Assembly: GCA_903879645.1 (NCBI GenBank)
Contig: CAIRMK010000210.1
Location: 1 to 61,744 of the forward strand
Source: an uncultured Bacteroidota bacterium
GTDB taxonomy: Bacteria; Bacteroidota; Bacteroidia; Flavobacteriales; Flavobacteriaceae
Direction: 5' to 3'
Length of the DNA: 61,744 nt
The notes beneath the pieces were generated by a model. That model was not told where the DNA came from, searched no databases, and was given only the letters and a program-made list of their open reading frames with translations. The position numbers were made by a program, and so were the translations under genes. Below, piece after piece: positions 18,167-60,112 of the stretch. Each line of letters begins with the position of its first letter. Positions within the stretch are counted from its first letter, which is position 1.

Positions 18167-18431
18167 ATTTTTAGAAAATAGAAAAAAGAATATAGAAAAT
18201 AGACCATCTTCTATAAAAGTAATCGTCTATATTCTATTCTCTATATTCTATTCTCTTAGCACAAATGCGCAATGCGCTATGTGTCGTGCTTCTTTAGAAA
18301 GCGAAGGGAATAATGCAAAAGTAATAGCCGTTAATGATGGAATTATCTATCTGATGGTTATTCCGTATCTGCTTGTGGGCATTGTGGGAATTGTAGTCTA
18401 TAGAATGTACAGCAAGAAAAAACAACAGTAG
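18156..18431 (+). CDS. Small exported/membrane protein with AQCAMC (CxxC) motif
   Basis: Signal peptide ending TNA-QCAMC, then NDGIIYLM and a C-terminal TM with a basic tail; ATG at 18156 overlaps the end of the DUF420 gene. Confidence 0.75.
   Translation: MLIKFLENRKKNIENRPSSIKVIVYILFSIFYSLSTNAQCAMCRASLESEGNNAKVIAVNDGIIYLMVIPYLLVGIVGIVVYRMYSKKKQQ
18172..18257. repeat. 7-nt-periodic inverted repeat (TAGAAAA-type left arm, TATTCTA/TTCTCTA right arm)
   Basis: Four heptamers + TAGAC, 20-nt loop, GTCTA + four complementary-type heptamers. Confidence 0.75.
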
Positions 18432-18473: not shown

Positions 18474-19184
18474 TTAGAAATTAAAGGTTGTAATTATAGG
18501 AGAGTGGTCACTTAAATGATTCCATTTTTCAAATGGTTCAATGATAATGTTGTTTAGATTGTTAAGAAATGAGGTAGAAGCGAAATAATAGTCTATATGA
18601 TAAGGTTTTAGTAAGTTTCTATGTAAATAAAATGTAGGACATGATTCTTTTCCTTGTTGTTCATTTGTGAATTTATGATATAAACTATGAATTCCAATTT
18701 CTTCCAATTCGCGTACAACATCAGAATGATTCCACCATCTATCCCATTCATCCCAAATTACATTACTATTGAAATCTCCGGTAATTATCGAATTATTAAA
18801 ATTTATTTTATTAATCTGTAAATACTTCCAAAATTGACCAATGTAACCAAAATTAGGGGATTTATTTTGATGAGTCCAAACAGCGAGAAGTTCAAATTGT
18901 TCATTTATGAGACAAGGTAAAAAGTGTTTTACTTTATGATCTTTATAATTATCAGACCAATCTAATAACTTTAAATTAGTATTTTCTTTAGCAAAAATTC
19001 CAAGCCCTTTATTTTTGGGGTCACCAATCCACAAATAATTATTGGCCCATTGGATGTATTTATGATCTTTAGTTTCTGCTGGATTTTCACATTCTTGTAT
19101 AACAAAGATATCAGCGCTTAAATCAATAAGGCTTTCAAATTTTTTTCGAAATGCTCCATTACAATTCCAAGTTATTATTTTCAT
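18474..19184 (-). CDS. Endonuclease/exonuclease/phosphatase (EEP, ExoIII-like) family protein
   Basis: TWNCN, DIFVIQEC, GDFN, HIDY and SDH catalytic motifs. Confidence 0.9.
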   Translation of the reverse strand: MKIITWNCNGAFRKKFESLIDLSADIFVIQECENPAETKDHKYIQWANNYLWIGDPKNKGLGIFAKENTNLKLLDWSDNYKDHKVKHFLPCLINEQFELLAVWTHQNKSPNFGYIGQFWKYLQINKINFNNSIITGDFNSNVIWDEWDRWWNHSDVVRELEEIGIHSLYHKFTNEQQGKESCPTFYLHRNLLKPYHIDYYFASTSFLNNLNNIIIEPFEKWNHLSDHSPIITTFNF

Positions 19185-19491
19185 TTAGCACTGTTTTGTA
19201 TGTAATATTAGTTAATTAAATAAAATAAGAATTAACTAAAGTATATAGACAAACATTTTTTAGATTATTTACACTTATTTATAATTTGTTTACGCTACAT
19301 AATTAATCGTTTAAAACAAATGTACTTAATAGTAAGACTTGAAAACTTTCTGCAAATTAAAAAAAGCATGCTTTTTTATAGATGTAAATGTTCAATAATT
19401 GCAACTTGCAAATTTTATTTTAAATCTAATAGAGGTATATTTTTTATTTAAGTAGGTTCCATAATGAGGTTAAATAATGTTTACTAGGGCC

Positions 19492-19768
19492 TCGCAAAGT
19501 TGCTGGCGGCCAAGAAACATTTTTAGGGGGTCAGCAACAATTCTCGGGGGTCAGCAACGTTGCTGGAGGCGTCAGCAACATTGCTGGGGGGCTTCCAACG
19601 TTGCTGGAGGTGTCAGCAACATTGCTAGAGGCGTCAGCAACATTGCTAGGGGGGCTTCCAGCGTTGCTGGAGGCGTCAGCAACATTTCTGGGGGGGCTTC
19701 CAATGTTGCTGGAGGTATCAGCAACATTGCTGAGGGGGTATTTAGAATTTTCAGTGAGATATTATTTG
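19492..19768 (+). repeat. GC-rich tandem array of 12 near-palindromic units (period 20-21 bp) with conserved 3' flank; element copy 1
   Basis: 14-bp cores start at 19492, 19512, 19532, 19552, 19573, 19593, 19614, 19635, 19656, 19677, 19698 and 19719. Consensus is CAGCAACRTTGCTG or TTCCAACGTTGCTG, with GAGGCGT or GGGGG(G)Y linkers. Confidence 0.93.
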
Positions 19769-19830
19769 AGTATGCTCAATAAACTGTGTCAAGAATAAAA
19801 CTTTAAACACCAACTCACTTGCGAATTTAA

Positions 19831-41190: not shown

Positions 41191-41229
41191 AAAATCCCGA
41201 TTTTGATATTTCAAAGTCGGGATTTTTTT
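41191..41229. terminator. Bidirectional terminator between clpX and the convergent small gene
   Basis: AAAATCCCGATTTTGA...TCAAAGTCGGGATTTT. Confidence 0.8.
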
Positions 41230-41266: not shown

Positions 41267-41641
41267 TTATGCTTTTGGTTTTTTAACAGGTGGACTATCG
41301 TCTACCACAAAACCATAATCGCCTAAGACTTTTGGGTTTTTAGCATATATATATTTTAATACTTGAGCGCTGTTTTGAACAATAGCTCTAATACCTGGCA
41401 AATCAAGATCACGTTGTCTATAATACTCTTCTGCTTTTTTAGCTGCTTCTTCCGCTTTTTCATGGTGCGTTTTGCAGGGCGCTACTTTAGGGCCTTCTAC
41501 CGTCCAACTAAAATCTTGTTGTGCATTAAGTGGCGAAGCTACTCCATCTGCTACATGTTTTGCATAAATTTTATTAGCTAAATCTAATAAATCGGTGGTT
41601 CCTTTTGGAAGGACAATTCTACCGTTGGTTCTTGTTGCCAT
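41267..41641 (-). CDS. Hypothetical 124-aa alpha-helical protein
   Basis: Clean ORF with an AT-rich AAAAATT-ATG start context; helical pattern (LLDLANKIYAKH...AEEAAKKAEEYYRQRD...LGDYGF); no recognisable motif. Confidence 0.8.
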   Translation of the reverse strand: MATRTNGRIVLPKGTTDLLDLANKIYAKHVADGVASPLNAQQDFSWTVEGPKVAPCKTHHEKAEEAAKKAEEYYRQRDLDLPGIRAIVQNSAQVLKYIYAKNPKVLGDYGFVVDDSPPVKKPKA

Positions 41642-41718
41642 AATTTTTAGAGTTTTTAATTGGTAATGACTTTTATATTGATATTAATAAGTGTATTATA
41701 ATATTTTATCATAATTAA

Positions 41719-41826
41719 CAAATAATATCTCACTTAAAATTCTAAATACCCCATCAGAAATGTTGCTGACCCCCAAGAATTGTTTCTAGACCCTCAGCAA
41801 TGTTGCGCGACCCCCGGTAATATTAT
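41719..41826 (-). repeat. Second, 3-unit copy of the palindrome-array element
   Basis: Minus strand reads GCGCAACATTGCTG-AGGGTC-TAGAAACAATTCTT-GGGGGT-CAGCAACATTTCTG-AT-GGGGTATTTAGAATTTTAAGTGAGATATTATTTG. The last 34 nt match 19735-19768 with 1 mismatch. Confidence 0.9.
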
Positions 41827-41856
41827 TGTATTTATTTATAAAACATCTTTAATAAA

Positions 41857-41885
41857 AAAAGTTACACCTAAAGAGTGTAACTTTT
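41857..41885 (-). terminator. Intrinsic terminator downstream of the methyltransferase gene
   Basis: AAAAGTTACAC-CTAAAGA-GTGTAACTTTT. Confidence 0.75.
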
Positions 41886-41977
41886 ATTGTTGCTTTACTT
41901 TGTGGGCACAAGCGTGATGTTTGCGCTAGTGATGGGGAGTAAAAAAAGTAAAGTTGTTGAAGAAATAATTACTTGAG

Positions 41978-50112: not shown

Positions 50113-50200
50113 GATTTGACACGAAATTACGGTTTTTGTTACAAGTTTGTGGTATAAGAATTATAAATTATTTTAAAAAGTATGATATTTGCCAAATGAA

Positions 50201-50258
50201 TTTTAAATATTAGATATCAGATATTAAATATTTAAAATCTAAAATTTAAAATCTAATA
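50201..50258. repeat. 7-nt-periodic inverted repeat in the hisS leader
   Basis: TTTTAAA TATTAGA TATCAGA TATTAAA / TTTAAAA TCTAAAA TTTAAAA TCTAATA. Confidence 0.6.
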
Positions 50259-50264
50259 TTAAAA

Positions 50265-51626
50265 ATGGCATCTAAACCAAGCATTCCTAAAGGCACACGC
50301 GATTTTTCTCCTGTTGAGGTTTCTAAACGTAACTATATTATTTCTATTATGAGAACTCATTTTGAGAACTATGGTTACCAGCCTATAGAAACTCCAAGTT
50401 TTGAAAATTCGGATACCTTGATGGGAAAATATGGTGAAGAAGGCGATAGATTGATTTTTAAGATATTGAATTCTGGAGATTATTTGGATAAGGTTTTAAC
50501 AGAAGAATTACAAGACATAAATTATAAAAAACTAACAACCAAAATCTCCGAAAAAGCCCTTCGTTACGACTTGACCGTTCCGTTTGCACGATATGTGGTA
50601 CAACACCAAAGTGAAATTGAGTTTCCGTTTAAGCGTTATCAAATTCAACCGGTTTGGCGTGCCGATAGACCTCAAAAAGGACGTTTTAGAGAATTTTATC
50701 AGTGTGATGCCGATGTAGTTGGTTCGAATTCGTTGTGGCAAGAAGTAGAGTTGGTGCAATTGTACGACTCGGTTTTTGCTGAATTGGGTTTGAATGGTGT
50801 TACTATCAAAATCAATAATCGTAAAATATTATCGGGAATTGCTGAGGTGATTGGTGCTTCAGATAAATTGATTGACTTTACCGTTGCTTTAGATAAACTG
50901 GACAAAATAGGAGAGGACGGCGTTAAAAAAGAAATGCTTGAAAAAGGAATTTCGGAAGAAGCTTTAGTAAAAGTGCAACCGTTATTCAATTTTACTGGAA
51001 CAATTCAAGAGAAAATTGAGAAATTGTCGGCATTACTTTCATCATCGGACGAAGGAATGAAAGGCATTGAAGAATTGCGATTCATCTGTGACAACGTGAT
51101 TCAATTAGGTTTGCAAAAAGCCATTTTAGATTTAGATGTAACGTTGGCTCGTGGTTTGAACTATTATACTGGAGCTATTTTTGAAGTTTTGGCACCTGCA
51201 GGAGTGGCAATGGGAAGTATTGGTGGCGGCGGACGATATGATGATTTGACCGGTATCTTCGGGTTGAAAAACATGAGTGGCGTAGGAATTTCGTTTGGAT
51301 TGGATAGAATCTATTTGGTTTTAGAAGAACTGAACTTGTTTCCAGAAACGGTAACGACTTCTACTAAAATTATGTTTTTAAATTTTGGCGAAAGCCAAGC
51401 TTTTGAAGCGATGCAAACCATTCAGAAATTGCGCACTCAAAATATTAAAGCCGAGTTTTATCCTGATCCTGCTAAGATTGACAAACAATTTAAACATGCC
51501 GAAAGAAGAAACATATCTTTTGTTGTGAAAGAAATTGCTAACGGACTGTTTACCTTAAAAAACATTGTTTCAGGCGAACAAACTCAAGTTAGCTTTGAAG
51601 AATTGGTTGGGAAATTAAAATATTAA
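50265..51626 (+). CDS. hisS: Histidine--tRNA ligase
   Basis: [52 protein letters not shown]. Confidence 0.98.
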
Positions 51627-52057: not shown

Positions 52058-55000
52058 CTAATTAAAAATAATTTTTTTCGATGTATCTCCTTTGTCCGTT
52101 TTTACTTTGACAATATAAGTTCCGGTGCTCAAATCTCGAATAGGTACTTGGATGTTTTGTTGATTTTGATCTTTTACATCAAATTCATTTACCAATTGGC
52201 TCAACATATTGAAAAGCGATACTTTTTCTACCGTGGTATCAATCACGTTGTTTTTTATGTTTAAAATATTACTTGCATTGGCATAAGTGATATCAATTCC
52301 ATTATCTAAATCAAAAGTATTTGTAGCTAGTGCCGAAGTATTTTTAAAGGTTAAAGAAAAACGAGTTTCCGTTAAACCGGCGGGTACTTGTACTGTATAT
52401 TTTTGAGAGGTAACATTGTGATAAATTCCAGTGGTATTGTCAAGAATATAAATTTTTTGATTGGCATTCCAATGTTCTGTTTTGTCAACCATTATATCAA
52501 CTGACCCCGCCACATTAGTTTTTATTCCAAGAGGGTAGGTTTTGTTAACATCAAAATATCCAACACCTTGAATGTTCAATCGAGTACCGCTATTCATAAA
52601 ATACATATCATTAAGTTGATTATCAATATTAGCACCATCATATCCAATATCAATTCCTTCAGTGGCATGATTTTCCATAAATCCTAAAAGAATTTGACGG
52701 TGATAATTATCGGTCGATGTCAATCCTAAACGTACTCTTTTAAAGGAGTCAGTTGGCACAAAATCTTCGGCATTATATCCTACTGCTGTGCTAACTATAG
52801 TTTGTTTGAAAAGAGTATTTGAGTTGATGGCATCATCTTCTTTTACAAAACCTCTTATACTATTATCAAAAGTTACGGTTCCTCCAATTGTAGAGCCTAC
52901 AATAAAGAATCCTTGTCCTACAGGAATGTATCTATTTGGTATTTTAGAACTTGTACCGATACCACTTATAGTTACTGGTGCTACTGGTCCTGTCCCACCA
53001 GTTAAGTTAAGTGCTGAATAGCCTCCTTGATAATTAGCTACATTATGGGTATTATTATTACTAGCATGTTGCCAAAAATAGATAGTACCTGTTATGGAAT
53101 CACTATTGTTAATGATAAACGCATTAGAATCAATTGCAGATGGATAAGGATTTCCTGAAAGGTTTAGATTTCCGGCGGCAATTGATGTAGTTATTCCTCC
53201 ATTATTTGGTTTACCAACAAAAGTATAGTTTTGAGTTGCAGTTGCAGCACCACTGCCTTTTAAGGTATATCCTTGAGCGGGTAATAATGAGCCAGTAGGT
53301 CCAACCGACGCCCAATTTGCATAAGCATTGCTAAGATTTTGGTATTTGAATATCCAATAACTACTTAATGTTATGGGGCTTGTAGGGCTACCATTTAATC
53401 CACTAGTCCATGATATGTTTTGTGGAGTACTTGTAGTTCCGTCTTTCATCACAACATCAACTGTGAATACATTATTATTTGAACTTGTATTGATTGGTCC
53501 AACAGGCGATGACCAATAGTTATAGTTATATAAGTTAGATTGTCCTTGTTGATCTCTATGAACATTACCCGCACTCGTTACATCTAAATCACTAATGGTG
53601 GTTTGAACAAGTTGTGATTTTCCGTTTAAAATAAGTGTGCCATCTAATTTTAAATACCAATCATTTTGAAGTTTAGTATCATTATTCATTGTTATTGTTG
53701 CACTTGGGTCAACAAACATTCCTAAGTCAATATTATTTGATATTTCAGTAATATTATGTTTGACTTGAATTATTGACCAATCTTGATCCATAGCATCCAA
53801 TCCTCTAATATCATTTGTAGAATCGTCAATTGCCGTTGCAAATGAACCTGCTCTTTTTGTTACAAATGGCATTGGAGCTTGTTGTACATAAATATTTTTA
53901 AAATTGTATAGCTTCATACCTGTTCCTTTATCTACTGTTGCGGTCGTTAAATCGTCAACAATATCATCTTTATAAGTATCCATTCTATAGTAACGCAATA
54001 AATTGGCAAAAGGTAAAGCAGGAATTTTTTTAGGGATGATTGCACCTCTAACTTGAGAACTTGTATTTTGAATTTCTTGATATACCATTTTCTCCACTTG
54101 ATCATCGGTTAGAGCAGTATTAAATACTCTAATCTCATCGATTTTTCCTTTAAAATACTTTGTATTAGCCGCTGGATTTTTACCTAAGGTTAATTTTGTA
54201 GCATCAGCAGCAATATTTCCAGTTGCCGTTTGAGAAGCTACTAACACTCCATTTAGATACAATTTAACTAATCCACCGCCATAAACGGCTGCGACATTAT
54301 ACCACTGTTTTGTGTTCAAGGTAAGAGTACTATATGTAAGAGTTGTACTATTTACTGCAACCTCTAATTTTTTTGCACTAGTCACTCTAATTTGAAATTT
54401 GTCTTGCCCTACAATCAGGCCATCTGAACTAAAAGCACTGTTTAAATCAATCCAAGCCATTAAGGAGGCATTTGCTAATCCTCCAAGAATTGGGGCGTTT
54501 TCTGCATAGTCATTTCTTCCATCAAAATCTAATTCAAGTTTTCGATTCAAGTCTCTTGGTGAACCTATCACATTTGGATTCGTATCAAAAGAGTCTAATA
54601 TTCCATCTTTGTCTATATCTACAGAGCCATCTATTTTTCCATCATTATTAGTGTCTAAACTACCATATAAACCAGTTTGAATATCGTTAATTCCATCATT
54701 ATTGGAGTCTAAATCTAAATAGTCTGGAATTCCATCACCATCGGTATCTTGAGCATAGGCTCTTGAAGTAGTTCCAAAGCCAACATAGTTATCATATAAA
54801 TCTAATATGCCATCTTTATCACTATCTACTAAATCTCCTTTTCCATCATCATTAATGTCGCCATCTCCATTTAACATTCCAGCTTCATCAACATCAAAGA
54901 ACGAATCATTATCACTATCTAAATCTAAGTAATTAGGGACGCCATCACCGTCAGTATCTGGAATCGAATAAGTTCCAGCAGCGATTTGAGCATCTATAGC

Positions 55001-58000
55001 ATCGTGAAGCCCGTTATGATTGGCGTCTACCCATAAGCTAGGATCCATTTTAGATGATCCATTACTATAGGCTTTCAACCCGGCTTCTTCAACATCCGGA
55101 ATGCCATCATTTTCATCATCTAAGTCAAAGATGTTAGGAATTCCATCACCATCAGAATCTACATACAATTGACTAATTGTAATATCATCCATTGCAAAAT
55201 CATTTCCACCACCTCCAGCTGCATTGTTTTTAATTTTTATAATAAAATCAGACACATTACCTAAATTGACAGTTGTAGTATAATTTAACCAATTGGATAA
55301 TGAGGGGCCACAAGTATTATCTAAAGAATTGGTAGCTGAACATCTACCTATATCCCCTGTATTATAGCTTGCAATTAATGTAGCTCCCGTTACATCCCTA
55401 AATTCAATTGTAATATTTGGTAAAATAGTTCCACTAAGATTTCCCTGTCTCATTAGGTTCATAACCCAAAAGCTAAAAGTTGTTGGAGTATTAGGTAGAA
55501 CACCATTAATGACTGCCTGATAAAAATAAGAACCGGCAGAAAAATCAGCATTAAAAATAGCCATTCTTCCATAAAGATCTCCTGTATGGTCTCGTTGATC
55601 TGTCCAAGCTAAATCATGGTGAAGATTTTCTGGATCTGATGATATACCATTAGTATTAGTTACTAAATAATTAACGCAATATTCACCGTCATCAAGCACT
55701 CCAGAAGAATTAGACGCACAATTATTTGCGTTTGTAGTTATATTATCTTCATAACAAGAGGTAGTAGTGGCACCAGGAATGTTAATATTAATTTGTCCTT
55801 TTGTTTTACCAGCTCCAAAAGTTTCATTTAAAAAAACATATTGAACTAAATTATTTGTAGGATAATTAAGTGCATCTGCTTGTTCTTTGATGTCTGGAAT
55901 TCCGTCATTATCATCATCTAAATCTTTATTATCAGTAACTCCATCTCCGTCAGTATCTAAATAAGTTTGCACTCCTAATCCGGTTAAAGCAAAAGTAAAG
56001 GGGGTCATTCCAGTTGCATTTGTCATTAATGAAATTGTAGCTGTTTTGGTCCCTTTAATAGTTGGGTTAAAGGCAATTTCGAATGTACTACTGCCTCCCG
56101 GAGCTATAGAAGAACTTGGGACTAAAGTCATATTAAAATCACTAGCATTAGTTCCTGTAAAAGACGTAGCTCCAATAAATAATGTTCCAGTTCCTGTATT
56201 TGTAATTGTATAAGTAATTATTACAGAACCACTATCAATAGATACATTCCCAAAATCTGTAAGTTTTGTAGGTGTAGGAGTAGTATCACCATTTGAAATA
56301 GCAACTCCATTAGTATTGGTTACGGTCATAACTAATGTTCCACCAGTTCCTTGTATTTTATAAGTGAATGGATTTTTAGTACTATCATTATTAACTATGC
56401 TAATTGTTGCAGTTCTTGTACCTGTTCCACTAGGCGTAAATAATACTGTGAAAGTTGAGCTTCCAAATGCAGCAATTGTAGCGCTTGGTGACGTTTGAAT
56501 TGAAAAATCAGCAGCATTGGTTCCACTAAAAGATAATGCACCAATTGTTAATGGAAAATTACCACCATTAATAATTGTAAAGGTTCTTGTAGATGCAACA
56601 GTACTGAAATCTGTCCAATTTGAAGTTAAAGGTGTTGTTGAACCATTGGTAATGCTTGATGCATTTCCTTGTATTGTTATTCCTTGTACTACACCAGTTC
56701 CTTGAACCTTAAATGTAAATGGATTTTTGGTACTATCATTATTTACAATGTTTATTGTAGCAGATCGAGTACCTGTTGCACCAGGAGTAAATAAAACTGT
56801 AAAGGTAGTACTTCCAAGAGCTGGGATACTAGAACTTGGAGATGTTTGAATCGAAAAATCAGTTGGATTTGTTCCTGTAAAAGTAATTGCTCCGATAGTT
56901 AATGGTAAAGTGCCAGTATTATAAATTGTATAAGTTCTAGTTATTGTTACAGTACTAAAATCAGTCCAATTGGAAGTTGATACAGTTGTTGATCCATTAG
57001 TAATAGCAGCAGAATTTCCTTTGATAGATATAAGCTGGGTGGCACCTGATCCACTAACAGCAAATGTAAAAGGATTTTTGGTGCTATCATTGTTAACAAT
57101 ACTAATTGTTGCATTTCGAGTTCCTGTAGCACTTGGAGTGAACAGTGCTGTAAATGTAGTACTTCCATAAGCAGCTACAGTAGCACTAGGTGCCGTTTGA
57201 ATCGAAAAATCTGAAGCATTCGCTCCTGTAAAAGTTATTGTTCCAATATTTAGAATAACATTTCCGCTATTAATAATGGTAAAAGTTCTTGTATTTGTTA
57301 TATTGCTAAAATCTGTCCAATTGGTTGTTGTTGTTGTAGATGATACATTTGTTATTGTTGTAGCATTTCCTTGAATTGAAATTCCTTGAGCAACACCTGT
57401 TCCTTGTAATGCAAAAGTGTAAGGGTTATTACTGGAATCATTGTTGATTATTGAAATTGTTGCTGTTCTAATTCCAGCAGCAGATGGATTGAATGTCACA
57501 ATAAATGTAGTACTCGATGAATTTCCTACAGAATTGGAAGGAAACGTTGTTACACTAAAATCACTTGCATTTGCTCCAAAAAAAGAGATGGCTCCAATAT
57601 TTAAGATACCAAGTCCAGTATTATTTATTGTAAAAGTACGTGTTGAATTGGTTGTGCTAAAATCTGTCCAGTTGGTTGTTGAAGGTGTTGAACTGCCATT
57701 AATAATTGCAATAGCATTGCCTGTAACATTTATTGATGAATAGTTTACAGTTGCTATAACGGCAGTTCTCGGCGATGAAGAACAAGTACCATTAACAGCT
57801 TCTACATAGTATGTAGTTGTAGTAGAAATAGAAGGCGTTGTAAAACTTGATCCAAAACCAATTGAAGAACCTCCGGTTAAATTGGCATACCAATAAGGTG
57901 TACCCGCGGATGGAGTTGCTCCTATAATAGTTGTTCCAGTTCCAGTTCTTGTTGATGGTACCGTTGTTGTAATTGTAGGAGTTGTATAAATTGTTAATAA

Positions 58001-60112
58001 TTTTGTAGAAGTATCATCGCTACATCCCACACTTGAAGCTGTAAGGGTAAGTGTTACGCTTCCGGCATTAATGTCTGCGGCACTCGGTGTATAAGTACAA
58101 GTAGACAATGAGTTTGCATTTGTAAAAGTACCAGTACCGTTTGAAGTCCAGGTTAATGTAGTATAGTTTGTCGCTGCTGCCCCAGATGTAATGTTTACTG
58201 CAGAAGAACTTGAACAAGTTGAGATTGCATCACCTGCAGTAGCCGTGGGAGCAAGTATATTCAATGCCTTTGTAGATACATCATTAAAACAAGAGCTTAA
58301 GCCTATTGCCGTAAGAGTTAATATTACACCTCCGTCTAAATTATCAGCTGCACTAGGAGTATAAGTACAAGCAGTTAATGAATTTGGATTGGTAAAAGTT
58401 CCTGTACCACTAGAAGTCCAAGTTATGCTAGAATAATTTGTTGCACTTGCTCCAGCAGTAATATTTACTGTTCCAGAAGCATTGCATAAATTTATTACGG
58501 TTCCCGCATTTGCTGCTGCAGGAGAAGTAATTGTTAAGGTCTTGGTAGATGTTGCTGTACAACCAGCGTTCGTTGCTGTTAAAGTCAAAATTACACTTCC
58601 AGCAATAATATCTGCAGAACTAGGAGTATAGGTGCATGCAGTTAATGAATTAGCATTTGTAAAGGTACCACTTCCACTACTTGTCCAAACTGTATTAGTT
58701 TGATTGGTTGCAGTTGCTCCTGCACAAACATTAGTCGAAACATAAATGGAGCAAAAAGATATTGCAGTCCCAGCATCTGCTGTTGTAGCTGGGCTAATGG
58801 TTAAGGTTTTAGTTGATATTGCAGTTGTACATGGTGAATTCCCACTAACAGTTAATGTTAATGTTACATTTCCTGAAACAATATCCGAAGCGCTTGGTAA
58901 ATAAGTGCATGTAGTTAATGAATTTGCATTTGCAAATGTGCCGGTTCCACTTGAAGTCCAAAGAATTGAAGTATAATTTGTAGCATTTGCTCCAGTCGTA
59001 ATATTTACTGCTCCAGTTGTTGAACAGGTATTAATTATCGTACCAGCTACTGCAGTTGGAGATGGGACAACAGTTGTATTGGCTGAGTTATTTGAACTAA
59101 TTGTACTGTTGCAGGTTCCAGAGGATAAATTTGTTATAGTAATAGTTGTCGTTCCAGCATTTAATAATGAAGTTGAAAAAGTTCCTATTCCTGGACTTCC
59201 TGAGGTGAAACTCATTGTTGCAGTGTTTCCGGTTGCTGTAGTTGACCCAGATAGATTATATTTGACTGTATAAGTTCCTGTACTTAGTGATGTTGAGCGT
59301 AAAGTAACTACTGAACTAGATGAAACACATAATGGTCCTGTTGCAGAAGCAGACGAGGTTAAACTATAGCTTGGACAGGTAAATATTATTGTCATATAGC
59401 CTCCAGCTCCACTAGCTCCACTAGCTGAGCCAGTACCGCCGCCGCCGCCGCCGCCGTAGTTGTTTCCAATTGTTCCATTTGTATTACTTAAAATACTTCC
59501 AGTACCTCCAGCTCCAGCATTTGTTCCACCAGATGATCCAGCAGTAGGTATAGTTCCAGCAGCTCCACCATTTCCAGTTAATGCAGCCCCACCACCACCG
59601 CCACCACTTCCAGTAGTAGATCCAGCTTTACCAGCACCTCCAGTTTTATTTGTAGACCCACCAGTACCAGTTCCACCGGTACCAGCACTTCCACCAGCAC
59701 TTCCAGTTCCACCACCACCACCATTACCACCATTTGCAGTAATTGTTGTTCCTCCAAATGTAGCTGTTGTTGCGCTTCCATTTCCTCCATTTGAGACTGT
59801 GCCTGTAGTTCCCGCTGTTCCAATTGTTATAGGATATGAAGTTCCAGACGTAACGGTTATGCTAATGTTTTGTGAAAAACCACCTCCACCGCCACCTCCA
59901 CCGCCATATTTGGTGCCACCACTACCACCATGCCCACCACCACCACCAGCACCATAGGCATTAACTTGAATAGATGTAACACCTGCTGGAGGAATAAAAG
60001 TTCCCGAGCTTGTATATGGTATAGTAGTTTGAGCATATCCAAAACCAACTATCATTAATAGTAAAATTAAAAAGATAAATTTTATTTCTGCTTTATTTAA
60101 ACTTGTTCTCAT
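52058..60112 (-). CDS. 2684-aa T9SS-secreted multidomain surface protein: Gly-rich domain, 4 PKD/Ig-like repeats, Ig domain, 5 choice-of-anchor-D-like repeats, DxDxDG Ca-binding repeats, LamG, T9SS type-A CTD
   Basis: Signal peptide; repeated WTSSGTGTF and NWTDFS..RTFTI..NPFTF units; DTDGDG/DSDNDS motifs; WYNVAAVY...FKGKIDEIRVFN LamG; LSTGTYIVKV..KKIIFN CTD. Confidence 0.9.
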   Translation of the reverse strand: MRTSLNKAEIKFIFLILLLMIVGFGYAQTTIPYTSSGTFIPPAGVTSIQVNAYGAGGGGGHGGSGGTKYGGGGGGGGGFSQNISITVTSGTSYPITIGTAGTTGTVSNGGNGSATTATFGGTTITANGGNGGGGGTGSAGGSAGTGGTGTGGSTNKTGGAGKAGSTTGSGGGGGGAALTGNGGAAGTIPTAGSSGGTNAGAGGTGSILSNTNGTIGNNYGGGGGGGTGSASGASGAGGYMTIIFTCPSYSLTSSASATGPLCVSSSSVVTLRSTSLSTGTYTVKYNLSGSTTATGNTATMSFTSGSPGIGTFSTSLLNAGTTTITITNLSSGTCNSTISSNNSANTTVVPSPTAVAGTIINTCSTTGAVNITTGANATNYTSILWTSSGTGTFANANSLTTCTYLPSASDIVSGNVTLTLTVSGNSPCTTAISTKTLTISPATTADAGTAISFCSIYVSTNVCAGATATNQTNTVWTSSGSGTFTNANSLTACTYTPSSADIIAGSVILTLTATNAGCTATSTKTLTITSPAAANAGTVINLCNASGTVNITAGASATNYSSITWTSSGTGTFTNPNSLTACTYTPSAADNLDGGVILTLTAIGLSSCFNDVSTKALNILAPTATAGDAISTCSSSSAVNITSGAAATNYTTLTWTSNGTGTFTNANSLSTCTYTPSAADINAGSVTLTLTASSVGCSDDTSTKLLTIYTTPTITTTVPSTRTGTGTTIIGATPSAGTPYWYANLTGGSSIGFGSSFTTPSISTTTTYYVEAVNGTCSSSPRTAVIATVNYSSINVTGNAIAIINGSSTPSTTNWTDFSTTNSTRTFTINNTGLGILNIGAISFFGANASDFSVTTFPSNSVGNSSSTTFIVTFNPSAAGIRTATISIINNDSSNNPYTFALQGTGVAQGISIQGNATTITNVSSTTTTTNWTDFSNITNTRTFTIINSGNVILNIGTITFTGANASDFSIQTAPSATVAAYGSTTFTALFTPSATGTRNATISIVNNDSTKNPFTFAVSGSGATQLISIKGNSAAITNGSTTVSTSNWTDFSTVTITRTYTIYNTGTLPLTIGAITFTGTNPTDFSIQTSPSSSIPALGSTTFTVLFTPGATGTRSATINIVNNDSTKNPFTFKVQGTGVVQGITIQGNASSITNGSTTPLTSNWTDFSTVASTRTFTIINGGNFPLTIGALSFSGTNAADFSIQTSPSATIAAFGSSTFTVLFTPSGTGTRTATISIVNNDSTKNPFTYKIQGTGGTLVMTVTNTNGVAISNGDTTPTPTKLTDFGNVSIDSGSVIITYTITNTGTGTLFIGATSFTGTNASDFNMTLVPSSSIAPGGSSTFEIAFNPTIKGTKTATISLMTNATGMTPFTFALTGLGVQTYLDTDGDGVTDNKDLDDDNDGIPDIKEQADALNYPTNNLVQYVFLNETFGAGKTKGQININIPGATTTSCYEDNITTNANNCASNSSGVLDDGEYCVNYLVTNTNGISSDPENLHHDLAWTDQRDHTGDLYGRMAIFNADFSAGSYFYQAVINGVLPNTPTTFSFWVMNLMRQGNLSGTILPNITIEFRDVTGATLIASYNTGDIGRCSATNSLDNTCGPSLSNWLNYTTTVNLGNVSDFIIKIKNNAAGGGGNDFAMDDITISQLYVDSDGDGIPNIFDLDDENDGIPDVEEAGLKAYSNGSSKMDPSLWVDANHNGLHDAIDAQIAAGTYSIPDTDGDGVPNYLDLDSDNDSFFDVDEAGMLNGDGDINDDGKGDLVDSDKDGILDLYDNYVGFGTTSRAYAQDTDGDGIPDYLDLDSNNDGINDIQTGLYGSLDTNNDGKIDGSVDIDKDGILDSFDTNPNVIGSPRDLNRKLELDFDGRNDYAENAPILGGLANASLMAWIDLNSAFSSDGLIVGQDKFQIRVTSAKKLEVAVNSTTLTYSTLTLNTKQWYNVAAVYGGGLVKLYLNGVLVASQTATGNIAADATKLTLGKNPAANTKYFKGKIDEIRVFNTALTDDQVEKMVYQEIQNTSSQVRGAIIPKKIPALPFANLLRYYRMDTYKDDIVDDLTTATVDKGTGMKLYNFKNIYVQQAPMPFVTKRAGSFATAIDDSTNDIRGLDAMDQDWSIIQVKHNITEISNNIDLGMFVDPSATITMNNDTKLQNDWYLKLDGTLILNGKSQLVQTTISDLDVTSAGNVHRDQQGQSNLYNYNYWSSPVGPINTSSNNNVFTVDVVMKDGTTSTPQNISWTSGLNGSPTSPITLSSYWIFKYQNLSNAYANWASVGPTGSLLPAQGYTLKGSGAATATQNYTFVGKPNNGGITTSIAAGNLNLSGNPYPSAIDSNAFIINNSDSITGTIYFWQHASNNNTHNVANYQGGYSALNLTGGTGPVAPVTISGIGTSSKIPNRYIPVGQGFFIVGSTIGGTVTFDNSIRGFVKEDDAINSNTLFKQTIVSTAVGYNAEDFVPTDSFKRVRLGLTSTDNYHRQILLGFMENHATEGIDIGYDGANIDNQLNDMYFMNSGTRLNIQGVGYFDVNKTYPLGIKTNVAGSVDIMVDKTEHWNANQKIYILDNTTGIYHNVTSQKYTVQVPAGLTETRFSLTFKNTSALATNTFDLDNGIDITYANASNILNIKNNVIDTTVEKVSLFNMLSQLVNEFDVKDQNQQNIQVPIRDLSTGTYIVKVKTDKGDTSKKIIFN

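What the first reader, a model, noticed from the sequence alone, without database searches (positions are those of the whole stretch)
41719..41870. Second copy of the array element, with fewer units and conserved flanks, 22 kb away on the other strand
Seen: the minus strand holds 3 units (cores at 41808-41795, 41788-41775 and 41768-41755; 20-bp period). They are followed by GGGGTATTTAGAATTTT(A/C)AGTGAGATATTATTTG, which is 33/34 identical to 19735-19768. The 5' sides are also similar: AATAATATTACCGGGGGTC vs AATAATGTTTACTAGGGCC, and AGGTGTAACTTTTTTTATTAAAG vs AGGTATATTTTTTATTTAAG. Inference: this is a dispersed cassette of fixed leader, variable-length array and conserved trailer. Both copies sit next to non-core genes between housekeeping blocks. 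That points to an undescribed mobile or regulatory module rather than a local slippage repeat. This is the best candidate for a new system in the window.
Basis: partly seen in the sequence, partly recalled or inferred. Interest (0 to 1): 0.8.

Follow-up and report, generated by a model that had tools for sequence, protein, structure and literature searches.

The report
21-bp repeat arrays beside orphan genes
The short repeat block is real and is the shrunken upstream array of a small uncharacterised gene whose relatives almost all carry their own 21-base-period array; such arrays likely act as in-phase protein-binding rows, and this genome holds dozens of them, many without a gene.

Summary
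Observation confirmed; the interpretation needs shifting. The copy at 41870-41719 is not a free-standing leader-array-trailer unit. It lies 78 bp upstream of a 124-aa orphan gene (41641-41267). In 28 of 30 loci of this gene family examined, the strongest upstream repeat period is 21, 42 or 63 bp, while the unit sequence changes between loci. This locus is an exception: it keeps only three 20-bp units. The 19.5-kb copy and a third on another contig are gene-less siblings that keep the 21-bp core. The genome has 59 further such intergenic arrays, and 9 of 9 members of a second orphan family have one upstream (background 41 of 2253 ORFs). The arrays are non-coding and mostly dyad-symmetric, with no terminal inverted repeats or target duplications. 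The protein is predicted to be a basic antiparallel homodimer. Best reading: a mobile array-promoter-gene cassette whose array is a helically phased binding row; binding is untested. Constant-length 20-21-nt bacterial repeats are published (PMC8161180); I found no paper linking them to genes. This scan noted the gene-array rule before on other Bacteroidota DNA.

The parts
41813..41870 (-). Leader of copy 2; its first part is the 3' arm and T-tract of the upstream gene's terminator-like hairpin
   Evidence: 36/58 identity to 19430-19487 on the fixed diagonal; hairpin 41885-41857
41753..41815 (-). Contracted array: three 20-bp quasi-palindromic units, resembling the 5' units and last unit of copy 1; the 21-bp core is missing (deletion inferred)
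41719..41752 (-). Trailer, likely degenerate terminal units running into the promoter region; ends 78 bp before the ATG
   Evidence: 33/34 to 19735-19768; degenerate-unit reading is by eye
41642..41718 (-). AT-rich spacer, likely promoter and 5' UTR; in 18 of 25 family loci a TAnnTT(T/A)-type box lies 47-51 nt before the ATG, but not a clean one here
   Evidence: consensus from PMC2483708 passage; no shuffle control
41267..41641 (-). 124-aa orphan gene; basic (pI 9.1), predicted helical hairpin with a 54-residue helix, predicted antiparallel homodimer
41191..41226 (.). Hairpin between clpX and the orphan gene; a similar hairpin follows clpX in relative G118, so it is likely clpX's terminator used from both sides
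   Evidence: by eye
19430..19487 (+). Leader of copy 1
19488..19734 (+). Copy 1 array, about 12 units, 20-bp units at the 5' end then a 21-bp core with two unit types; no orphan gene follows
   Evidence: RNA fold z -7.2
19735..19768 (+). Trailer of copy 1; likeness to copy 2 ends at 19768
18474..19184 (-). Endonuclease/exonuclease/phosphatase-family gene in the same inserted block as copy 1; not seen at this site in 24 relatives

Best explanation
The element is the upstream repeat array of a 124-aa orphan gene, and array and gene likely form one mobile cassette whose non-coding, dyad-symmetric units are predicted to serve as a row of protein-binding sites on one face of the DNA helix. Shown: the gene-array coupling, the fixed 21n period with free sequence, the lack of a general coding signal, patchy presence at many chromosomal sites, and gene-less sibling arrays. 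Predicted: the protein is a basic, two-fold symmetric rod. Inferred and untested: dimers of it (or a host nucleoid protein) bind the dyads with loose sequence preference and pack along the array with a 21-bp step, which would keep the period while unequal recombination rewrites the units, and would control the promoter just downstream. Inferred: cassettes are copied to new intergenic sites and decay, leaving solo arrays (copy 1, C217) and broken genes (C238); at this locus the array has lost its 21-bp core. The enzyme that moves them is not identified.
For: Top upstream lag is 21, 42 or 63 in 28 of 30 family loci, downstream controls at most 0.64; exceptions are this locus (20) and L056 (83-84). 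24 non-redundant loci fall into 17 site groups; array likeness tracks protein identity (Spearman 0.41, 18 of 2000 permutations; base composition not controlled). Gene in 6 of 250 other genus genomes. Genome period spectrum 21:56, 42:49, 63:46 regions against 20:3, 22:8. Second orphan family (predicted similar helix layout plus fibronectin-III-like domain): 9 of 9 loci with an array against 41 of 2253 ORFs. Dyad symmetry in 19 of 22 family arrays, mirror control 5 of 22. Stop-free frames as expected by chance under the conditional null (15 vs 12.3; 70 vs 67.1). Homodimer score 0.75, best control 0.00; that mark was reached by 20 of 30 solved pairs and 1 of 23 single chains; contact agreement at least 92%, pLDDT at least 88; two-domain fusions exist. 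140 of 163 stored 110-135-aa homologues have pI above 8. Promoter-like box lies between array and ATG in 18 of 25 loci. 8 of 13 array sequence clusters include a member upstream of an orphan-family gene.
Against: No DNA-binding domain was recognised and no binding was tested. Proteins 70-80% identical have weakly related arrays, so binding would have to be sequence-tolerant. Periods of 31-32 bp (three turns) are absent and there is no 10-11 bp sub-period, tighter than helical phasing alone needs. Fibronectin-III and carboxypeptidase-regulatory fusions suggest surface or protein-binding roles. This gene is intact although its own array has lost the 21-bp period. Dyad symmetry holds in only 24 of 50 genome arrays, with the mirror control at 16 of 50. 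Sibling arrays were found in only 1 of 5 other genomes tested. A distant second-family homologue in G146 and two other orphan genes in G000 (C88, C83 161-aa) lack an upstream array; the C528 gene has one downstream. No sequence homology between the orphan families was detected.
Confidence: 0.45

Rival explanations
1. The arrays work as RNA: transcribed hairpin rows that bind the protein or are cut into 21-nt pieces.
For: Copy 1 folds at z -7.2; dyad symmetry 19 of 22; basic protein; PMC8161180 reports transcription of 52-nt repeats in B. coagulans.
Against: Arrays often follow a terminator-like hairpin and lie upstream of the promoter-like box; copy 2 folds weakly (z -2.0); no Rfam match in the window; dyad units fold well whether or not they are transcribed.
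Confidence: 0.15
2. The array is the mobility signal: single-stranded hairpins acted on in trans by a host transposase or recombinase (REP/BIME- or MITE-like), with the gene as passenger or helper.
For: Solo siblings in G000, G103 and an unrelated array at the DUF4403 site in G146; 17 site groups among 24 loci; broken gene copies.
Against: No flanking inverted or direct repeats beyond chance in 51 arrays; no shared end sequence across array families; no transposase beside either window copy; does not itself explain the fixed period.
Confidence: 0.17
3. The period is a mutational ruler of the host (slippage or repair duplicating 21-bp segments); arrays grow neutrally in recently acquired DNA and carry no function.
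For: 20-21-nt repeats occur in many bacterial groups (PMC8161180); load differs between relatives (none clear in 200 kb of G072, two in 200 kb of G023, 3.7 per 200 kb in G000); this gene survives with a contracted array.
Against: Position is fixed 100-310 bp upstream of the gene across proteins down to about 40% identity and not downstream; 9 of 9 vs 1.8% background in one genome.
Confidence: 0.13
4. The arrays encode 7-residue-repeat peptides (a coiled-coil partner or leader of the rod protein).
For: 21, 42, 63, 84 are multiples of 7 codons; copy 1 holds a 101-aa ATG ORF (19477-19782); the first null gave excess stop-free frames (18 vs 8.3; 77 vs 46.9) and 11 of 50 genome arrays had a synonymous excess.
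Against: The excess vanishes when stop number is held fixed; 14 of 22 family arrays and 17 of 50 genome arrays have stops in all six frames, including the very regular C94 array; no synonymous excess in family arrays (0.229 vs 0.245); 20-bp units break the frame; copy 2 has no ATG.
Confidence: 0.07

Closest known systems
Constant-length 20-21-nt bacterial tandem repeats (Subirana and Messeguer, PMC8161180; parts 1-4 of 5 read)
   Same: Non-coding, several species-specific sequence families per genome, fixed length with free sequence, uneven load between relatives; the authors note two helical turns and suggest a protein that polymerises on them.
   Different: That paper is on Bacillus, does not mention Bacteroidota or Flavobacterium and links no gene family to the repeats in the parts read. 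Here arrays sit upstream of specific orphan families, with multiples up to 84. Their 2020 J. Bacteriol. survey was not held and supplements were not read.
BrickBuilt MITE of Porphyromonas gingivalis (PMC4596501; abstract and part 1 of section 7 read)
   Same: Bacteroidota, intergenic, leader + tandem array + tail, dispersed copies.
   Different: 23-nt unit, one sequence family, IS5-like terminal inverted repeats; none found here, and no linked gene.
Iteron and centromere arrays (P1/F/R6K iterons, sopC, parC); recalled, not from a call
   Same: Phased sites upstream of a gene whose product would bind them.
   Different: No Rep, ParA/ParB or ParM domain; chromosomal; no match in plasmid or phage sets; unit sequence drifts quickly.
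REP/BIME with RAYT; recalled, not from a call
   Same: Palindromic intergenic repeats, a gene-linked copy plus dispersed copies.
   Different: The linked gene has no transposase match; few copies per sequence family; strict tandem period.
CRISPR and TIGR arrays; recalled, not from a call
   Same: Leader-like side, degenerate end units, neighbouring small gene.
   Different: No unique spacers; no cas-like or PADLOC match for the gene.

Membership tests
Constant-length 20-21-nt bacterial tandem repeats | Repeat length 20-21 nt dominates the genome's tandem repeats | tested here: met
   21:56 regions, with 42:49 and 63:46; 7- and 14-bp microsatellites are the next class
Constant-length 20-21-nt bacterial tandem repeats | Several sequence families per genome, species-specific | tested here: met
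   13 clusters plus 18 singletons; this unit pattern in 0 of 400 other genus genomes
Constant-length 20-21-nt bacterial tandem repeats | Generally non-coding | tested here: met
Constant-length 20-21-nt bacterial tandem repeats | At least four repeats | tested here: met
   Met by copy 1 and C217; copy 2 alone has three
MITE (BrickBuilt-like) | Terminal inverted repeats | tested here: not met
   Own flanks score 14.27 vs swapped 14.43 over 51 arrays; short AT-rich inverted matches at copies 1, 2 and C217 seen by eye only
MITE (BrickBuilt-like) | Target-site duplication | tested here: inconclusive
   No direct-repeat excess, but 2-5-bp duplications would be invisible and no near-identical empty site was available
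Iteron/centromere array | Adjacent Rep or partition protein | tested here: not met
   No Pfam, NCBIfam or PHROG match; fold searches show only generic helical matches
Iteron/centromere array | Cognate protein binds the array | not testable with these tools
   No protein-DNA test available
CRISPR array | Constant repeats with unique spacers and cas genes | tested here: not met
   Contiguous units without spacers; neighbours are not cas
REP/RAYT | Linked HUH tyrosine transposase | tested here: not met
   Neighbouring genes of both window copies have no such match; the rest of the genome was not searched for one
Known structured RNA | Rfam match | tested here: not met
   0 matches at gathering threshold in the window

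The most novel reading that the evidence does not exclude
Bacteroidota carry a superfamily of transposase-free mobile cassettes in which a rod-shaped homodimer reads a 21-bp ruler rather than a sequence, polymerising on its own dyad array and on solo copies seeded around the chromosome. These proteins would be the missing partners that explain the constant-length 20-21-nt repeats of bacteria.
Probability: 0.25. Interest if true: 0.85.

Novelty: new variant of a known kind. Interest (0 to 1): 0.66.

Why it matters
Why many bacteria keep tandem repeats of constant 20-21-nt length but free sequence is an open question (PMC8161180), with a polymerising protein proposed but none named in the parts I read. 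The tight coupling to small, expressible orphan proteins supplies candidates and a direct test, and this one genome offers many array-gene pairs, solos and a natural core-deleted allele.

Tried and rejected
Leader/trailer conserved elsewhere: not found. Gene in phages, plasmids, viral contigs: no match. Pfam, NCBIfam, PHROG, PADLOC, PDB sequence and fold searches of the 124-aa protein: nothing specific (best Z 6.8, 69, 112-114); Atlas neighbours unnamed, DUF6261 only at 0.77. Profile homology between the orphan families: none; only the predicted helix layout is alike. Coding: an apparent stop-free excess did not survive the conditional null. 7-bp microsatellite origin and 10.5-bp sub-period: no lag signal. 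Terminal inverted repeats and target duplications: none beyond chance. Expression: no RNA holder listed. tRNA/tmRNA integration site: none in the window. Phylum-wide draw found only 2 of 400 other genomes, one weak. An exact empty site for copy 2 could not be defined because clpX and the methyltransferase are not neighbours in the relatives seen. Literature searches without a relevant hit; led to the Subirana papers. Earlier-findings look-ups by sequence and by genome returned nothing.

Full report
Observation. The minus strand at 41815-41753 holds three quasi-palindromic 20-bp units, then a 34-nt trailer 33/34 identical to 19735-19768. The leaders match 36 of 58 on the array-fixed diagonal (0 of 20000 shuffles) and homology ends at 19430/41870; searched freely the leader is unremarkable (213 of 3000 controls). 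Contigs from other runs reproduce copy 2 exactly and copy 1 in pieces. The genome has a third array of this sequence on C217, between convergent genes, without leader and with 9 nt of trailer. Copy 1 and C217 align unit by unit; copy 2 resembles the 5' units joined to the last unit, so an internal deletion is inferred. The host is a Flavobacterium, judged from named homologues.

What is conserved. The leader, trailer and unit were not found in other genomes (60, 150 and 400 searched). The gene 78 bp downstream of copy 2 (41641-41267, 124 aa) is the anchor. It matches no Pfam, NCBIfam, PHROG, PADLOC or PDB entry, occurs in 6 of 250 other genus genomes and has 583 representatives at 50% clustering, including two-domain and Ig-like fusions. 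Of 30 family loci scored, 28 have their top upstream lag at 21, 42 or 63; downstream controls reach at most 0.64; arrays end about 100-310 bp before the ATG. The 30 include this locus and six near-duplicates. Left out were five loci with too little upstream DNA or only a fragment (L017, L020, L022, L030, L060), three repeats of loci already counted, the C238 pseudogene, a weak hit (L033) and a two-domain homologue that by eye also has a 21-bp array (L032). The exceptions are this locus (20) and L056 (83-84). Units differ widely; likeness tracks protein identity (rho 0.41, 18 of 2000; copy 1 stood in for this locus; composition uncontrolled), and 24 loci fall into 17 neighbourhoods. A TAnnTT(T/A)-type box lies 47-51 nt before the ATG in 18 of 25 loci, not cleanly here (Bacteroidetes -7 consensus from a passage of PMC2483708), which would place the array upstream of the promoter.

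Sites. At the DUF4403 3' end, 17 of the 24 best-scoring relatives have the small gene next to DUF420 within 65 bp, none has the EEP gene, and one (G146) has an unrelated, gene-less 21/42-bp array. After the methyltransferase, 0 of 24 relatives show the orphan gene or clpX (two loci are short), and four relatives lack the gene after clpX. So both window sites are derived. A 5'-truncated copy of the gene lies on C238.

Genome-wide. Regions by period: 21:56, 42:49, 63:46, against 20:3, 22:8, 31 and 32:0. After removing 8 inside long ORFs and 9 microsatellite-like, 59 remain; at least one (C238) is probably coding and some at contig ends may be halves of one array. With copy 2 they form 13 sequence clusters and 18 singletons; 8 clusters include a member upstream of an orphan-family gene. 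A second family of about 224 aa has 9 loci in the genome and all 9 have a 21/42/63/84 array, against 41 of 2253 ORFs in the background. Its model has helices at 15-30, 43-93, 97-102, close to 15-35, 46-99, 103-108 in the 124-aa model, plus a fibronectin-III-like domain; sequence homology between the families was not detected. Against generality: a distant homologue in G146 and some other orphan genes lack an upstream array; sibling arrays were found in 1 of 5 other genomes (G103, a solo after a terminator); 200-kb samples gave none clear in G072 and two in G023.

Nature of the array. Coding is not the rule: a first null suggested excess open frames and 11 of 50 arrays with synonymous excess, but with stop number fixed the counts are 15 vs 12.3 and 70 vs 67.1, and many arrays have stops in all six frames. 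The 101-aa ORF over copy 1 is therefore likely incidental. Dyad symmetry is significant in 19 of 22 family arrays (mirror control 5 of 22) and 24 of 50 genome arrays (control 16 of 50); no 7- or 10.5-bp sub-period. No terminal inverted repeats or direct repeats beyond chance in 51 arrays. No Rfam match.

Protein. Homodimer score 0.75 against best control 0.00 (mark reached by 20 of 30 solved pairs and 1 of 23 single chains; contacts agree at least 92%; pLDDT at least 88). The contacts (66-66, 59-77, 53-84) describe an antiparallel rod with the N-terminal arm and C-terminal strand at its ends. From helix geometry (my estimate) it would be some 60-100 A long; 21 bp is about 71 A, so the match is only of scale. 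The protein and 140 of 163 stored homologues are basic.

Mechanism. The best fit is a cassette of array, promoter and gene in which a symmetric protein packs along phased dyads, keeping the period while units turn over; copies land in intergenic gaps and decay to solos or broken genes. Coupling, period, non-coding state and patchiness are shown; the dimer is predicted; binding, regulation and the route of movement are inferred (0.45). Rivals: mobility signal (0.17), RNA (0.15), neutral ruler (0.13), heptad peptide (0.07).

Known systems. Constant-length 20-21-nt repeats are described for Bacillus and stated to occur in many groups (PMC8161180, parts 1-4 of 5 read); this array meets their defining features. 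PMC6749651 was read in part 1 of 5 only. BrickBuilt (PMC4596501, abstract and part of section 7) has a similar layout but is a MITE with terminal inverted repeats. A link between such repeats and gene families was not found in my searches; the 2020 survey and all supplements were unseen and may bear on this. Earlier notes of this scan reached the same gene-array rule on other Bacteroidota DNA; I had seen it first. They are not independent support. Verdict: real, a new variant of a known kind, interest 0.66.

Noticed in passing
window 41896-41929: Short palindromic element after the methyltransferase that matches dispersed sites in several Flavobacterium genomes; looks like a genus-wide REP-like repeat.
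   Followed up: no
G000:C369:1831-2440 (L143) and G000:C44:7274-7944 (L142): 21-bp arrays directly upstream of Cro/C1-type HTH_26 genes; alternative candidates for the array-binding protein.
   Followed up: partly
G000:C260:3292-3941: Array with an 84-bp period: six copies of one box spaced 41, 84, 84, 84, 84 bp upstream of a second-family gene.
   Followed up: partly
L085 and L130 (G146:C254/C436): An unrelated 21/42-bp array occupies the same DUF4403 3' site as copy 1 and starts next to a 7-bp microsatellite; possible insertion hot spot.
   Followed up: partly
window 18172-18256 and 50199-50266: 7-bp microsatellites; 28 regions of period 7 genome-wide, and relatives carry different 7-mers in the start of the same small gene.
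   Followed up: no
window 19410: A contig in run X3 joins the copy 1 leader to different upstream DNA with a terminator-like hairpin: possibly a further copy or an allele without the EEP gene.
   Followed up: no
window 19769-19795: A contig in run X6 has 17 gaps just after the trailer, so the right junction varies between strains.
   Followed up: no
G000:C238:23734-23946 (L015): 5'-truncated second copy of the 124-aa gene with a weak 21/42 signal upstream (0.62).
   Followed up: partly
window 52058-60112: 2684-aa ORF with 351-bp and other internal repeats and glycine-rich tracts, likely a large surface protein.
   Followed up: no
L068: A record titled as an archaeal MAG holds a locus nearly the same as Bacteroidota locus L024; likely misbinned.
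   Followed up: no
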